Shown: positions 18,233-24,030, counted from the stretch's first letter. The stretch is DNA of 59,212 nucleotides from Candidatus Nomurabacteria bacterium (GCA_016186435.1 JACPLQ010000001.1:1-59212), one strand, 5' to 3'. The notes: a model not told the origin generated them from the sequence alone. Made by a program: numbers and translations.

Positions 18233-19171
18233 ATGGCAAATAGGCACCTTTCAAGATCAATAGTTCTTCAGACTCTCTTTGAACGGGATTTCACTCCTGC
18301 AGATAAAGAAGGTGAAAGCCTGAACATGGAGGAAGTGCAAGAAGCATTAAAAAGAAATTTAAAAGAATTTGCGCCCGGTTTTGAAGACGATGCTTTCGTC
18401 TTTTCGCTTGCCGACCAGGTACTAAAAAAACAGGCAGTAGTCGATGAAATTATAGAAAAAGCGGCGCCGGACTGGCCGATTGACAAAATCTCCGTGGTAG
18501 ACAGGAATATTTTGAGGATTGGACTCACAGAGCTTTTGTTCGGAGACCGCAAAGAAGTGCCTCCCAAAGTCGCAATCAACGAAGCTATAGAGCTTGCCAA
18601 AACTTTCGGCGGAGAAAATTCCGGCAAATTTGTAAACGGAGTATTGGGCGCGGTCTACAAAGAAATCGGCGAGCCGGGCAAGGAGCAGATTAGTAAAAAG
18701 AAAAATATTAACGAACCGGTGGATATTTCCAAATTGCCGGTAGATAAAAAAGGCGGAGCATTGGTATATACCAGAAAAGACAATCAGCGCGAAGGAAATA
18801 TTTTGTTTGCTCTTGTGCATGATGTTTTCGGATATTGGACAATTTCTAAAGGCACGATTGAAGAGGGGGAAAATGAACGGGAGGCGACAATACGCGAGAT
18901 CAAAGAAGAAATAGGACTAGATATTGAGATAGAAGAAAAGCTTGGAGAAAATCAATATGTGGCTTCGCATCCCGAAAAGGGAAAAAGCTTAAAAAAAGTT
19001 TCTTACTTTTTAGCAAAAAGCGAATACAAAGAGCTTGTGCTTGAGAAATCTACCGGGCTTGACGCTGCGCGCTGGTTTGAGCTTTCAGCTATTCCGGAAC
19101 TTCACATTTATAACGACATTATTCCGCTTATCAGCAAGGCTATAGAAATACTGAGTAGTAAAAAGTTATAA
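18233..19171 (+). CDS. nusB: NusB antitermination factor fused to a C-terminal Nudix hydrolase domain
   Basis: NusB signature ([14 protein letters not shown]...[26 protein letters not shown]). It is followed by the Nudix box [23 protein letters not shown]. Confidence 0.8.
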
Positions 19172-19194: not shown

Positions 19195-19890
19195 ATGGTA
19201 AATTTTTCAGATTTTGAGAAAAAAATAAAAATAACTTTCAAAGACAAGAACTTGCTTATGCAGGCTTTTACCCACCGTTCTTATATAAACGAGAACGGGG
19301 GAACGATTCTCACTCACAACGAGCGCTTGGAATTTTTGGGAGATGCGGTATTGGAACTTATCGTTACGGATTTTCTATACAAAAAATATCCGAATTACAC
19401 CGAAGGAGAATTGACGGCGATACGTTCGGCCCTCGTGAACGCAGTTATAATTTCCGAGGTTGCGAGTGACGTGGGCATGAATGAATATCTTCTCTTATCC
19501 AAAGGCGAAGCGAAGGATCACGGCAAGGCCAGGCAGTATATTTTGGCCAATACTTATGAAGCCGTCGTCGGAGCAGTGTACATGGACCAGGGATATGAAA
19601 CAGCGGAGGCGTTTATAACTAAGACTTTACTGCAAAAAACAGACGAAATTGTAAAAAAGAAACTTTGGCGCGATGCGAAGTCACTAGTGCAGGAAAAGGC
19701 GCAGGAATTTGTGGAGGTCACTCCGATGTATAAAGTTTTGAACGAAGCAGGGCCTGATCATGACAAGCATTTTACGGTGGGAATTTATTTTGCTAAAGAT
19801 TTGATTGCCGAAGGCAAGGGCAAGAGCAAGCAGGAAGCCGAACAGAAGGCAGCAGAAGCGGCATTAAAAGTAAGAAACTGGGTAGACTAA
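19195..19890 (+). CDS. rnc: ribonuclease III
   Basis: NERLEFLGDAVLELIV catalytic signature plus a C-terminal dsRBD. Confidence 0.95.
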   Translation: MVNFSDFEKKIKITFKDKNLLMQAFTHRSYINENGGTILTHNERLEFLGDAVLELIVTDFLYKKYPNYTEGELTAIRSALVNAVIISEVASDVGMNEYLLLSKGEAKDHGKARQYILANTYEAVVGAVYMDQGYETAEAFITKTLLQKTDEIVKKKLWRDAKSLVQEKAQEFVEVTPMYKVLNEAGPDHDKHFTVGIYFAKDLIAEGKGKSKQEAEQKAAEAALKVRNWVD

Positions 19891-19896
19891 ATAAAA

Positions 19897-22065
19897 ATGA
19901 GGCTCAAAACACTTCAACTGAACGGCTTCAAATCTTTCGCGCAAAAAACTGTTTTAGAGTTTGAAAGCCCGATCGTAGCCATCGTAGGACCCAACGGTAG
20001 CGGGAAGTCGAACGTGGTGGAAGCGGTGCGTTTTGTCTTGGGCGAGCAATCCATGAAGTCCATGCGCGGCAAGGGAGGCTCCGACCTTGTTTTTAAGGGT
20101 TCAAAAAATTTATCTAAAGGCACAAAAGCTTCCGTCACCATTTATTTCAACAATACCGATAAAATTTTTAAACTCACAAACGACGGAGGAGAAAATATAA
20201 ACTTAAATTATGACATCATTTCAATCTCCCGCGAAGTTTATTCTGACGCACTCAATAAATACATTTTAAACGGTACGGAAGTCCGGCTTAAGGACATACA
20301 TCACTTGCTCTCTTATGTGAACATCGGATCTTCCGGCCACCATATAATTTCCCAGGGCGAAGCCGACAGAATATTGAATGCGAGCTCTAAAGACAGGAAA
20401 GAAATGGTGGAAGACGCGCTAGGACTCAAAATTTATCAATACAAAATAAGGGAATCCGAAAGAAAACTGGAAAAAACGAATGAGAATATGAAAGAAGTGG
20501 GCATGCTCCGCCGGGAAAATGCTCCGCACCTTAACTTTTTGAAAAAGCAGGTAGAAAAATTTGAAAAGGTCAAAGAAATGCAGTCGGAGCTTGCTACCCT
20601 TTATCGGGAATACTTAAAAAAAGAAAGTATTTACCTAGAAGAAGAAAAAGAAAGTCTGAAAAAAGAACGAGAAAAAATTTCCGTAGAATTAAAAACTGTT
20701 AATGATAAAATTTCAGCGACAGACGAAAGCAATTCGGAAGGCAACCCGCGCCAAGGCGGGGCAAGTAAAAAAATAGATGAACTGCGAATTGCCGAGCAAA
20801 AGATAAATGCTTTACGCGGGAAAAAGGGCGAGCTGGAACGCAAGCTCGGGCGCATAGAAGGCATACTGGAAGCGAGAGTTGATAAACTAAAAGTTTCCGG
20901 CAAGTGTCCGCTTTGTGGAAGCGATATAGGCGACGAAGATGCGGGGCAGTTAGAGCGGAAGCATAATGAAGAAAAAGAACTTGCTGAATTAAAAACTTCT
21001 CAAGCAGACACCCTTGCCGAAATACAAAAAATAGAGACAGAAGAGAAAGAAATTAGCGGCGCAGTAGAAAAACTTAAACAAGAAATAAACAGAGAAATGG
21101 AAGCATTGCGTGATCTAGAGCGGGAGAAATTTACTTTTAAAGTCAGACAGCAGGAACTTTCTAGCGCGCTTGAGCTCATAGTTATCAAAGAAGACAGCTT
21201 GAGAAGCAGGAGAGAATTGTTTGAGAATGAAATAAATGAAGGCACAGCCCTTGTCGGCGCTGAAATTTTGGCTTATAAGAATTATCAGGGAAGCGTGGAG
21301 GAACAAATTATTCCACAAGATGAGTTAAAGAAAAAAATAGAGCGCATAAAGATAAAACTTGAAGATGCAGGTCTTGGCAATAGCGCGGAGCTAATGCAAG
21401 AATACAATACTGTGTCAGAACGCGATCGATTTTTAGCCAAAGAGCTTGAAGACATTGAAAAAAGCATTGACTCTCTCAAAAAACTTATTGCCGACCTCAA
21501 AGAAAAAATAGACATAGAGTTTCAAGAAGGAGTAAAAAAAATAAATGTTGAATTTCAGGAATTTTTCGCGATTCTATTCGGAGGCGGACATGCGTCGCTT
21601 TCAGTAGTGATGGAGATAAAACGCAGGAGAAAGATACAAGAGGATGAAGAACCCGCCGACGCCGAAGGCTTTGGCGAGGCGAGCGAGACAGAGGAGGAGG
21701 CAGAACCGGAGCAGGGGATAGAAATAAATGTTTCTTTGCCTCACAAGAAAGTAAAAGAATTGCATGCATTTTCCGGAGGAGAACGATCGCTCACCTCTAT
21801 CGCGCTTTTGTTTGCAATGTCGCAGGTAAACCCGCCGCCATTTTTGGTGCTGGATGAGACAGATGCCGCGCTGGATGAAGCGAATTCCAGAAAATATGGA
21901 GATATGCTGGAAAAACTATCTAAAGCGTCCCAGCTTATAGTCGTCACTCACAACAGAGAGACTATGTCCCGAGCGGGAGTGCTTTACGGCGTCACTATTG
22001 GTTCCGACGGCGCGTCCAAACTCCTGTCCGTCAAATTCGACGAAGCCACCCAGATTGCGAAATAG
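19897..22065 (+). CDS. smc: SMC-family ATPase, short (722 aa), with no recognisable hinge and a CPLC motif at the coiled-coil midpoint
   Basis: SMC head motifs: LNGFKSFA, GPNGSGKSN, QGEADRIL, LSGGERSLTSIALLFA and FLVLDETDAALD. The rnc-smc synteny is conserved. Cys337-Pro-Leu-Cys340 is encoded at 20905-20916. Confidence 0.8.
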   Translation: MRLKTLQLNGFKSFAQKTVLEFESPIVAIVGPNGSGKSNVVEAVRFVLGEQSMKSMRGKGGSDLVFKGSKNLSKGTKASVTIYFNNTDKIFKLTNDGGENINLNYDIISISREVYSDALNKYILNGTEVRLKDIHHLLSYVNIGSSGHHIISQGEADRILNASSKDRKEMVEDALGLKIYQYKIRESERKLEKTNENMKEVGMLRRENAPHLNFLKKQVEKFEKVKEMQSELATLYREYLKKESIYLEEEKESLKKEREKISVELKTVNDKISATDESNSEGNPRQGGASKKIDELRIAEQKINALRGKKGELERKLGRIEGILEARVDKLKVSGKCPLCGSDIGDEDAGQLERKHNEEKELAELKTSQADTLAEIQKIETEEKEISGAVEKLKQEINREMEALRDLEREKFTFKVRQQELSSALELIVIKEDSLRSRRELFENEINEGTALVGAEILAYKNYQGSVEEQIIPQDELKKKIERIKIKLEDAGLGNSAELMQEYNTVSERDRFLAKELEDIEKSIDSLKKLIADLKEKIDIEFQEGVKKINVEFQEFFAILFGGGHASLSVVMEIKRRRKIQEDEEPADAEGFGEASETEEEAEPEQGIEINVSLPHKKVKELHAFSGGERSLTSIALLFAMSQVNPPPFLVLDETDAALDEANSRKYGDMLEKLSKASQLIVVTHNRETMSRAGVLYGVTIGSDGASKLLSVKFDEATQIAK

Positions 22066-22125: not shown

Positions 22126-24030
22126 TTAGGGAGTTTTCATCTCTTGAAACTTCACTTTCTCTTCTTTTGCGGGAATTATTTTTTCTAGCTGGAACACGGA
22201 ATTTAATTGCGTATTATTTTTTCTTACAGACATTGAGCCATCCTTGCCTAATTTAATCTGAAGAAGCATGCCTTTCGTGGTTTCTTTGCTCCAAGACTGA
22301 TCAAAGACAAAATTTCCGAGCGAGTAGGCGATAAAACCATTTTTATAAACTTCAGTATCTTGGATTACATGCGGATGATGACCGATGACTATCTTAGCTC
22401 CATTGTCTACTGCTTTATGCGCTAAATATTCCTGCCGCGTATTGTGAACTGTCTTATATTCATCTCCGAAGTGAAAAGAAACTACTAGATAATCCACTTG
22501 CTTAGCCGCATTTTTTATTATTTCGTCAAAACGGGGATCGCTGGCGAGCAGTAAGCCGGCAGTTTCACTTTTTGCTTCCATCCAGTTCGGTCCAACGTCG
22601 GAGAATCCCAAGAAGCCGATTTTTAGCCCATATTTTTCAATAATAACCGGAGCTTCGGCCTCTGTTTCAGTATTTCCGCCGCCGGTATAAAGTATTTCAT
22701 TTTCTTTCAGGCGTGAGAGCGTGTCTGCATATGCGCTTCGTCCCCAGTCGCCGACATGATTGTTTGCCATTGACACGATGCTTACTCCGGCGCCCTTCAT
22801 CGCGGGAATAACGCTCGGATCCATCCTAAAAGAATATAAATTTCGCATATCTGCGCCTTTGTCGGACGCGGCGCCTTCCAGATTTACGAAAGCTATATCG
22901 GAATTTTTAAATATTTCCAGTTTTGAAAAAATTGCGGAATAATCATTGCCGAAATTTTTTACGACTGAATTTTTCACCCCGCGGGCAAGCATAATGTCGC
23001 CGCCGAAGGCGAGAGTTACAAAGTCCGGCTCGCGGATGTCCGGCACACCGACTCTTTCTTCCACCCAGTTTGTGATTGCTCCGAGCGCGCCGCCATAATA
23101 AACATTTTTCTTCAGGTAATTTACGATGCTTTCCACATCTTTCTTGCGGTCTGCGCTCTGGAGGAGAGTGATAGCAACAGGGCGTTCACTTTTTTCTGCC
23201 AATGAACCTAAGTGCAGAGAGAAAAGAGAGACGACTGTCTGCCTAGCAGCGTCTGTGTATCCGCTTTTACCCCCGATGTATCCGTCTTTCCCCAAAAATT
23301 GGCTGATGTTAGACCAATTATGTTTTTTATTTGAAAAGCTTCTGTTGGTCGTAATTCTTAGGAGTTCCGGATGTTCTTGGGCTAGATAACCGGTGAGCTT
23401 GAATATGTCTCCTGTTGTTGATTTATTATTTGGAGATAATCCGCTCGGATCTTCAAAGTGAGTGTCCTCCATTTTTAACTTTTCTGCCGTTAGGTTCATC
23501 TTTGAGATGAAGCTATCCCGGCCGAAATGTTCCGCAATTACTTCGGCTGCATCGTTGCTAGACTCCAGAAGGAGGGGATATAAAAGATCTGATATTTTTA
23601 CCTTTTCTCCCGGGCGCAATTCGCCATTTTGCCCGTACGTCGCAAGCGCCCGCTTGCTTACTGTTGCCACTTCGTCCGGCTTTGCAAGCTCGCTTGCCAC
23701 CAAAGCAGTCATTAGTTTAGAAACTGATGCTATTGGGAAAATATTCTCCTGATTTTTTGAAAGTATTACTTCGCCAGTGTGAAGGTCGCCGACAATATAT
23801 GCTTTTGCGGAAACTTTCGGGCCTCCGACAAGATCTTTATTCGTATAAAAGTATTGAGGTTTTTTTGCTTCAGACGGAATGAGCTGGACCACTCTGGCTT
23901 GAGAGTCTTTTGTGAAGAGCGTTTTTATTCCCGTATCAATGAGAGATGATAAAGAATAAGTAAAAAATATGCCGACAAGAATCGGAAATACTGACCACAA
24001 CAAGAGCTTAGTTTTATTGCGAGACCTCAT
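22126..24030 (-). CDS. fusion of a serine-type D-Ala-D-Ala carboxypeptidase (PBP5-like) and a CapA/PGA-type metallophosphatase domain
   Basis: N-terminal TM segment, SxxK (IASVSKLMT) and SSND (= SxN, in LLESSNDAAEV). The C-terminal half has FGGDIMLARGV...VSMANNHVGDWG...IVIGHHPHVIQ, typical of CapA. Confidence 0.7.
   Translation of the reverse strand: MRSRNKTKLLLWSVFPILVGIFFTYSLSSLIDTGIKTLFTKDSQARVVQLIPSEAKKPQYFYTNKDLVGGPKVSAKAYIVGDLHTGEVILSKNQENIFPIASVSKLMTALVASELAKPDEVATVSKRALATYGQNGELRPGEKVKISDLLYPLLLESSNDAAEVIAEHFGRDSFISKMNLTAEKLKMEDTHFEDPSGLSPNNKSTTGDIFKLTGYLAQEHPELLRITTNRSFSNKKHNWSNISQFLGKDGYIGGKSGYTDAARQTVVSLFSLHLGSLAEKSERPVAITLLQSADRKKDVESIVNYLKKNVYYGGALGAITNWVEERVGVPDIREPDFVTLAFGGDIMLARGVKNSVVKNFGNDYSAIFSKLEIFKNSDIAFVNLEGAASDKGADMRNLYSFRMDPSVIPAMKGAGVSIVSMANNHVGDWGRSAYADTLSRLKENEILYTGGGNTETEAEAPVIIEKYGLKIGFLGFSDVGPNWMEAKSETAGLLLASDPRFDEIIKNAAKQVDYLVVSFHFGDEYKTVHNTRQEYLAHKAVDNGAKIVIGHHPHVIQDTEVYKNGFIAYSLGNFVFDQSWSKETTKGMLLQIKLGKDGSMSVRKNNTQLNSVFQLEKIIPAKEEKVKFQEMKTP

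What the first reader, a model, noticed from the sequence alone, without database searches (positions are those of the whole stretch)
19897..22065. Hingeless 722-aa SMC with a Rad50-like CPLC motif at the coiled-coil apex
The head domains are typical SMC (FKSF, QGxxxxI, LSGGE, Walker A/B), and the gene keeps the conserved rnc-smc synteny. Yet the protein is about 450 residues shorter than canonical SMC. The heptad-rich middle contains no hinge-like globular segment. Instead a Cys-Pro-Leu-Cys motif sits at residues 337-340 of 722 (nt 20905-20916), almost exactly at the midpoint. That is the position and sequence type of the Rad50/SbcC zinc hook.
Basis: partly seen in the sequence, partly recalled or inferred. 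Interest (0 to 1): 0.6.

Follow-up and report, generated by a model that had tools for sequence, protein, structure and literature searches.

The report
Hinge-less bacterial SMC with zinc hook
This tiny-genome (Patescibacteria) bacterium's only chromosome-organising SMC protein has half-length arms and, where the usual hinge should be, a two-cysteine motif like the zinc hook of the repair protein Rad50; this matches a hinge-to-hook swap that the papers I could search describe only as a laboratory construct.

Summary
ORF 19897-22065 (+) encodes a 722-aa protein with bacterial Smc heads. No hinge domain is detectable in the protein or anywhere in the 706-kb genome. CPLC sits at aa 337-340, and these are the protein's only two cysteines.

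It is the genome's sole SMC-superfamily coiled-coil ATPase. ScpA, ScpB and ParB are present; SbcD and RecN were not found. RNase III lies directly upstream.

The apex matches only the P. furiosus Rad50 zinc-hook structures in the PDB (E 2e-5). It also aligns in register with Patescibacteria SbcC hooks (hhalign 95%). All 120 close homologues keep CPxC.

Hinge loss is phylum-wide: SMC_hinge was found in 7 of 301 sampled genomes. Most short SMCs carry a cysteine-free two-helix tip instead, including one in the same genus. On a tree built without the apex, the hook needs at least 6-7 changes, and a single hook clade is rejected (AU p 0.024).

Best reading: an Smc-ScpAB condensin whose arms are joined by a zinc hook. 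Zinc binding and dimerisation are inferred, not shown.

This scan reached the same reading before on other Patescibacteria and DPANN genomes. I found no paper describing it. I rate it a new variant of a known kind.

The parts
19195..19890 (+). rnc (RNase III), immediately upstream; the conserved rnc-smc neighbourhood
   Evidence: Pfam Ribonucleas_3_3 1.2e-39, Ribonuclease_3 6e-27, dsrm 3.5e-14
19897..22065 (+). smc: 722-aa hinge-less Smc with an apical CxxC (whole ORF including stop)
   Evidence: ORF list and translation. SMC_N 3.4e-56. TIGR02168 1.6e-147. Best PDB sequence hits are B. subtilis Smc heads 5XG3/3ZGX at about 1e-74. Best Foldseek hits are prokaryotic Smc head plus joint, 5XEI 2.8e-31.
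19897..20427 (+). N-terminal half of the ATPase head (aa 1-177): FKSF, Walker A GPNGSGKSN, Q-loop Q153
   Evidence: AF2 strands and helices with pLDDT above 90; invariant columns K37 and Q153 in alignment A1
20428..20895 (+). Ascending arm helix (aa 178-333, with a break at 282-287), about 156 residues
   Evidence: AF2 secondary structure: H178-281 and H288-333
20896..20949 (+). Apex loop (aa 334-351) holding SGKCPLCGSDI; CPLC is nt 20905-20916; proposed zinc hook
   Evidence: The protein's only two Cys; invariant in 127 homologues. PDB 1L8D E 1.9e-5. PF04423 23.1-23.7 bits. hhalign against SbcC hooks 94.9%. Low pLDDT in the monomer model.
20950..21579 (+). Descending arm helices (aa 352-561) with a joint-like break at aa 463-473 and 492-495
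   Evidence: AF2: H352-453, H455-462, H474-491, H496-561. The best fold match includes the Smc joint (5XEI).
21580..22062 (+). C-terminal half of the head (aa 562-722): signature FSGGE, Walker B LDETD, D-loop, H-loop H685. It includes a disordered acidic insert at aa 574-604 (nt 21616-21708).
   Evidence: Invariant columns S626 G627 G628 E629 D653 E654 D656 H685; AF2 pLDDT about 50 for aa 581-600

Best explanation
This gene encodes the Smc subunit of the organism's Smc-ScpAB condensin. Its ATPase heads, head-proximal joint and antiparallel coiled coil are of the ordinary bacterial Smc type. The arms are about half the usual length: roughly 160 residues up and 210 down, an estimated 24 nm, against about 344 residues and 47 nm in B. 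subtilis. The globular hinge is missing. At the arm tip a loop, SGKCPLCGSDI, offers two cysteines. Two protomers are proposed to share one Zn2+ through four cysteines, as in the Rad50/SbcC zinc hook. That would give the constitutive tip-to-tip dimer that the hinge normally provides. ScpA would close the head end and ScpB would bind ScpA. ParB would load the ring at parS, after which it would translocate or extrude loops by ATP hydrolysis. Shown here: Smc identity, absence of a hinge, conservation of CxxC, resemblance to hooks, and presence of the partner genes. Inferred: zinc binding, hook-mediated dimerisation, and function on the chromosome. In evolutionary terms, the hook in this lineage replaced a cysteine-free two-helix tip that most Patescibacteria short SMCs carry. 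The swap occurred within one genus-level group.
For: Smc identity: TIGR02168 1.6e-147 against 4e-21 for the best Rad50 model. PDB sequence hits to Bs Smc heads are about 1e-74 against about 1e-11 for Rad50. Foldseek top hits are prokaryotic Smc head plus joint. The catalytic residues are invariant.

Sole SMC: the only SMC_N hit over the cut-off in a 98.75%-complete genome. No SbcD, no RecN, no hinge anywhere.

Partners: a ScpA-ScpB operon and ParB. In 121 genomes of the class, Smc and ScpB are each found in 79, with nearly the same family pattern.

Hook: the only two Cys, invariant in 127 homologues. The apex hits only PfRad50 hook structures. PF04423 hits 9 of 25 diverse apex segments, best 2.2e-6. 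hhalign to same-phylum SbcC hooks gives 94.9%, E 4.8e-8, with CxxC in register. AF2 places CPLC in the loop joining the two arm helices.

Feasibility: B. subtilis Smc with its hinge replaced by the PfRad50 zinc hook supported normal growth on rich medium (PMC5344682).
Against: No experiment and no dimer model; the AF2 monomer apex has pLDDT below 50. PF04423 stays just under its gathering score. After the CxxC comes an 11-residue acidic linker unlike the Rad50 one, and the Rad50-type 'EH' that follows the hook is not in register. The sister lineage in the same genus, and most of the phylum, manage with no cysteines at the tip, so the cysteines are not a general requirement of short Smc. TIGR02168 is below its curated cut-off (493 vs 567 bits).
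Confidence: 0.72

Rival explanations
1. The protein is the Smc of Smc-ScpAB, but the CxxC is not an intermolecular zinc hook. Dimerisation would come from arm-arm or tip contacts, and the cysteines would serve another role, such as local structural metal binding with other ligands, redox sensing or a disulphide.
For: Relatives with a cysteine-free tip presumably dimerise without zinc. Other hook-type lineages have non-Rad50-like inner residues: CIYC, CRTC, CAAC, CGYC, CAMC. PF04423 is under its cut-off.
Against: With only two Cys per chain and no other conserved His or Cys nearby, a tetrahedral zinc site needs two chains. The His 16 residues downstream is Q or E in many clade members. In the hook-type proteins the two-helix tip is deleted, leaving little else at the apex to dimerise. 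The position at the exact hairpin tip and the shared C-x-x-C-[GAKN]-[QSNKR]-x-[ILVM] pattern match Rad50/SbcC hooks.
Confidence: 0.15
2. It is functionally a Rad50/SbcC-type DNA-repair ATPase that merely looks like Smc, rather than a condensin subunit.
For: A zinc-hook-like apex and arm lengths in the Rad50/SbcC range. The genome has no other SbcC or RecN, so a repair role could have been taken over.
Against: There is no SbcD/Mre11 nuclease partner in the genome. The heads score as Smc by more than 120 orders of magnitude over Rad50. The gene sits in the rnc-smc slot. ScpAB is present and co-distributed with this protein across the class. True SbcC genes of this phylum look different (N-terminus MIPxxLxLxNFMSYG, 730-900 aa) and have a 405-429-aa ORF, not identified here, close by on the same strand.
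Confidence: 0.05
3. The short gene is an artefact: a truncated, misassembled or decaying smc.
For: The protein is about 460 aa shorter than canonical Smc and falls below the TIGR02168 cut-off.
Against: The frame is intact, with all catalytic motifs. There are over 120 database clusters at 73-83% identity and the same length, on contigs up to 672 kb. Thousands of 660-800-aa relatives exist. The AF2 model is confident (mean pLDDT 86).
Confidence: 0.01

Closest known systems
Bacterial Smc of the Smc-ScpAB condensin (B. subtilis type; NCBIfam TIGR02168; PDB 5XG3, 3ZGX, 5XEI)
   Same: ATPase head motifs, a head-proximal joint, an antiparallel coiled coil, ScpA/ScpB/ParB partner genes and rnc-smc gene order.
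   Different: No hinge domain. Arms are about half the length. A CxxC loop sits at the tip. The score is below the family's curated cut-off.
Rad50/SbcC zinc hook (Pfam PF04423; PDB 1L8D, 6ZFF)
   Same: CPxCG at the tip of an antiparallel coiled coil, a hydrophobic residue four positions after the second Cys, and significant sequence and profile matches.
   Different: The heads are Smc, not Rad50. There is no Mre11/SbcD partner. The score is just under the Pfam cut-off. The linker after the motif differs.
Engineered B. subtilis Smc(Zh): hinge replaced by the P. furiosus Rad50 zinc hook (Buermann et al. 2017, PMC5344682). See also Tatebe et al. 2020, PMC6969161, on hook/hinge interchangeability.
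   Same: The same architecture: Smc heads and arms with a zinc hook at the tip. The chimera supported growth, and shortened arms worked in defined length classes.
   Different: That is a laboratory chimera with a transplanted archaeal hook. This is a natural gene, and its hook replaced a cysteine-free helical tip rather than a hinge directly.
Archaea-specific SMC-related proteins (ASRP: coalescin ClsN, Sph1/2; NF045487; PMC9389158)
   Same: Short SMC-superfamily proteins that carry a zinc-hook motif instead of a hinge; ClsN is implicated in chromosome organisation.
   Different: A different family: 56 bits against a cut-off of 300. It is archaeal, and ScpAB partnership is not part of the family's description as I read it.
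Cysteine-free short Smc of most Patescibacteria (e.g. P0121, G256)
   Same: 62-66% identical outside the apex, with the same heads, arms and length class.
   Different: The tip is a roughly 40-residue-longer two-helix hairpin without cysteines (AF2 H337-355 and H360-378).

Membership tests
Bacterial Smc (Smc-ScpAB condensin, TIGR02168) | SMC-type ABC ATPase head split between the N and C termini, with Walker A, Q-loop, signature, Walker B, D-loop and H-loop | tested here: met
   SMC_N 3.4e-56; Bs Smc head structures about 1e-74; invariant catalytic columns; Foldseek 5XEI 2.8e-31
Bacterial Smc (Smc-ScpAB condensin, TIGR02168) | Whole-protein score above the curated equivalog cut-off | tested here: not met
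   493.2 bits against a cut-off of 567.35; only the head and arm-proximal parts align (model positions 1-308 for the best stretch)
Bacterial Smc (Smc-ScpAB condensin, TIGR02168) | Globular hinge dimerisation domain (PF06470) at the coiled-coil apex | tested here: not met
   No hit at E<=10 in the protein or in the six-frame genome. AF2 shows only an 18-residue loop at the apex.
Bacterial Smc (Smc-ScpAB condensin, TIGR02168) | Long intramolecular antiparallel coiled-coil arm | tested here: met
   AF2 helices 178-333 and 352-561, about half the B. subtilis arm length of 344 aa
Bacterial Smc (Smc-ScpAB condensin, TIGR02168) | Kleisin ScpA and kite ScpB encoded in the genome | tested here: met
   ScpA 2.9e-17 and ScpB 2.6e-37, adjacent on contig 14. 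Smc and ScpB co-occur in 79 of 121 class genomes each.
Bacterial Smc (Smc-ScpAB condensin, TIGR02168) | Physical binding of ScpA to the Smc neck and cap; ATP-dependent DNA entrapment | not testable with these tools
   Needs biochemistry or a multimer model
Rad50/SbcC | CxxC zinc-hook motif at the apex of the coiled coil | tested here: inconclusive
   The motif and position are met and conserved. 1L8D E 1.9e-5. hhalign 94.9%. But PF04423 gives 17.5-23.7 bits, below the 24.3 cut-off.
Rad50/SbcC | Zn2+ shared by four Cys from two chains | not testable with these tools
   Only monomer prediction is available
Rad50/SbcC | Mre11/SbcD nuclease partner | tested here: not met
   TIGR00619 finds nothing at E<=1 in the genome
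Rad50/SbcC | Rad50-type head sequence | tested here: not met
   Best Rad50 model 74.5 bits against cut-offs of 700-1087
ASRP (ClsN/Sph, NF045487) | Score above the family cut-off; archaeal distribution | tested here: not met
   56.5 bits against 300; the organism is a Patescibacteria bacterium (names)
RecN (TIGR00634) | Score above the family cut-off | tested here: not met
   44.4 bits against 407.85

The most novel reading that the evidence does not exclude
In natural Smc-ScpAB complexes the hinge is fully dispensable, and the arm tip is an evolutionary swap site. Patescibacteria lost the hinge almost phylum-wide in favour of a minimal two-helix tip. From that state, a Rad50-like CxxC zinc hook arose independently at least six times. 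One of these events lies within the window's own genus. The hooks would then be convergent inventions rather than transfers from SbcC.
Probability: 0.4. Interest if true: 0.78.

Novelty: new variant of a known kind. Interest (0 to 1): 0.62.

Why it matters
SMC complexes fold chromosomes in all domains of life, and what the hinge contributes beyond dimerisation (DNA binding, gate opening, force transmission) is debated. A laboratory chimera showed that B. subtilis Smc tolerates a Rad50 zinc hook in place of its hinge. This gene shows that the same design exists naturally, is under purifying selection in a large uncultured clade, and sits on half-length arms. Nearly a whole phylum does without a hinge. 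Hook and cysteine-free tips alternate between close relatives. Together these give a natural comparative series for asking what the arm tip must do. They also offer compact, hinge-less Smc-ScpAB complexes that may be easier to study structurally.

Tried and rejected
Both AF2 jobs were monomers, and the hook loop came out at low confidence, as expected without zinc and a partner.

I used PF04423 to count hook-SMCs across 301 genomes of the phylum. Its hits were mostly true SbcC-like proteins of 730-900 aa, plus a topoisomerase zinc finger and another ATPase. Only the window's genus was detected as hook-Smc, so this model is unsuitable for a census.

I looked for hook-type Smc among the 29 best Smc loci of 121 class genomes. 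All 29 were cysteine-free. An exact frequency of the hook type therefore rests on the 50%-identity representatives, where 8 of 148 clusters carry it.

An apex-only database search for a donor SbcC found only Smc proteins of the same clade. There is thus no evidence of a recent transfer. The search is word-based and cannot exclude an old one.

Seven literature searches covered zinc hook, hinge, Patescibacteria/CPR, hingeless, Smc-ScpAB and coalescin. They found no description of a natural bacterial hook-Smc.

I considered and rejected RecN, ASRP and Rad50 membership on curated scores.

Full report
**Observation.** The window holds one long ORF at 19897-22065 (+), 722 aa. CPLC lies at aa 337-340 (nt 20905-20916), and these are the only two cysteines in the protein. 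Pfam finds SMC_N (3.4e-56, spanning aa 3-707) and no SMC_hinge even at E<=10. Rad50_zn_hook matches aa 328-362 at 17.5 bits against a cut-off of 24.3. RNase III is directly upstream, preceded by a NusB-Nudix fusion and L32.

**What the protein is.** NCBIfam ranks bacterial Smc (TIGR02168) first at 1.6e-147; the best Rad50 model reaches 4e-21. ASRP reaches 2e-15 and RecN 1e-11. The Smc score of 493 bits stays under the curated 567 because the hinge and half the arm are missing. Against PDB sequences the heads match B. subtilis Smc (5XG3 and 3ZGX, about 1e-74), far better than Rad50 (about 1e-11).

An AlphaFold2 model built on a 114-sequence alignment has mean pLDDT 86. It shows a well-folded head, an ascending helix (aa 178-333), an 18-residue low-confidence loop (334-351) that contains CPLC, and a descending helix set (352-561) with a joint-like break. 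There is no globular apex. Foldseek's best matches are prokaryotic Smc head plus coiled coil plus joint (5XEI, 2.8e-31). The arms are thus roughly 160-210 residues, about half of the 344 residues of B. subtilis Smc.

**Genome context.** The assembly is 706 kb in 29 contigs and 98.75% complete. Database names place close homologues in Patescibacteria (Paceibacteria/Nomurabacteria). This gene is the only SMC_N match above the cut-off. Six-frame searches find no SMC hinge, no SbcD and no RecN. The only Rad50-hook match in the genome is inside this gene (23.1 bits).

ScpA (247 aa) and ScpB (189 aa) form an operon on contig 14, and ParB is present. Across 121 genomes of the class, a homologue of this protein and ScpB are each found in 79. 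The family-by-family pattern of presence and absence is nearly the same. That pattern is phyletic support that the short Smc works with ScpAB.

**The apex.** A 113-aa apex fragment finds only two significant PDB sequences, both the P. furiosus Rad50 zinc hook: 1L8D (E 1.9e-5) and 6ZFF (E 5.6e-5). GKCPLCGSDI aligns to GKCPVCGREL. All 120 nearest database clusters (73-83% identity, 706-735 aa) have CP[L/T/M/V]C at 0.46-0.47 of their length, and 104 of them have no other cysteine.

A profile of 25 diverse hook apexes aligns in register with a profile of nine SbcC hooks taken from Patescibacteria genomes (hhalign 94.9%, E 4.8e-8). Nine of the 25 apexes hit PF04423 individually, the best at 2.2e-6. 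With two cysteines per chain and no other conserved ligand nearby, a tetrahedral zinc site requires two chains, as in Rad50. This step is inference.

**The wider family.** An exhaustive search of 50%-identity representatives returned 29,344 hits. The best 150 are all 524-797-aa short SMCs at 42-72% identity. Of the 148 longer than 650 aa (including the query), only 8 carry an apical CxxC: the query cluster plus CIYC, CRTC, CRYC, CAAC, CGYC, CPVC and CAMC. The rest have a tip about 35-40 residues longer and without cysteines, and many have no cysteine at all. None of eight proteins tested has a Pfam hinge.

The nearest representative outside the query's cluster (P0121) is 62% identical. It is collinear except that a roughly 70-residue cysteine-free segment replaces the roughly 34-residue hook segment. 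AF2 models that segment as two short helices (337-355 and 360-378) between flexible loops.

In a 301-genome sample of the phylum, SMC_hinge is found in only 7 genomes; the six hits above the cut-off lie in two families, in ORFs of 871-1079 aa. Among the 29 best Smc loci from 121 class genomes, all are cysteine-free. Within the window's own genus-level group, G284 has the hook (78% identity) while G256 has a 739-aa cysteine-free Smc (63% identity).

**Evolution.** I built a tree of 157 proteins with the apex columns removed, rooted on five hinge-bearing Patescibacteria SMCs. The window's hook clade is sister to cysteine-free P0121 (support 100), inside a 50-row clade with 45 cysteine-free members. 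The hook state needs 7 changes, at least 6 of them forced by well-supported branches. Forcing all hook proteins into one clade costs 133.6 log-likelihood units and is rejected (AU p 0.024).

This is a quick LG+G4 tree, so the exact count is provisional. Hook segments from different lineages are only 19-35% identical to the window's. An apex-only database search found no SbcC donor. Independent origin therefore looks more likely than recent transfer, but an old transfer cannot be excluded.

**Comparison with what is known.** Buermann et al. 2017 replaced the B. subtilis hinge with the PfRad50 zinc hook and obtained normal growth on rich medium. They concluded that the fold of the dimerisation domain is irrelevant for chromosome segregation, and they found that only certain arm-length classes work. 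Archaeal ASRPs (ClsN, Sph) are SMC-related proteins with zinc hooks, but they are a different family. I found no paper describing a natural bacterial Smc with a hook, or the phylum-wide hinge loss.

Earlier entries of this scan reached the same reading on other Patescibacteria and on DPANN archaea. This window is therefore another member of a class the scan already knows.
- genus-level coexistence of the two tip types;
- the AU test against a single hook clade;
- the co-distribution of Smc and ScpB;
- the in-register match to same-phylum SbcC hooks.

**Verdict.** It is not a full member of the Smc equivalog, because the hinge and the cut-off are not met, and it is not a member of Rad50/SbcC. 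It most likely works as an Smc-ScpAB condensin closed at the tip by a zinc hook (confidence about 0.7). Zinc binding and dimerisation remain to be shown.

Noticed in passing
class-level genome sample: About one third of sampled genomes of this class (42 of 121, many 98-100% complete) show neither an Smc homologue (E<=1e-20) nor ScpB. The same families lack both, which suggests whole-system loss of Smc-ScpAB in several families.
   Followed up: partly
window 22126-24030 (-): A 634-aa ORF fuses a D-Ala-D-Ala carboxypeptidase (Peptidase_S11, 1.2e-37) to a PGA_cap/CapA-type domain (6.3e-70).
   Followed up: partly
window 18233-19171 (+): A 312-aa ORF fuses NusB (6.3e-34) to a C-terminal NUDIX hydrolase domain (1.2e-13), directly upstream of rnc-smc.
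   Followed up: no
window 21616-21708 (+), aa 574-604 of Smc: A disordered, strongly acidic insert (EDEEPADAEGFGEASETEEEAEPEQ) sits in the C-terminal head half, between two strands, with low pLDDT. It is variable in relatives.
   Followed up: no
L023-L026 (G033, G227, G250, G200): Some Patescibacteria carry unusually short SbcC/Rad50-like proteins (730-769 aa, N-terminus MIPxxLxLxNF.SYG) with CP[LT]C hooks, alongside the roughly 860-900-aa form seen in other families (L018-L022).
   Followed up: partly
L011-L015 (families f31, f104): The few Patescibacteria SMCs that keep a hinge are also shorter than canonical Smc: open frames of 872-1079 aa, in part unrefined starts.
   Followed up: no
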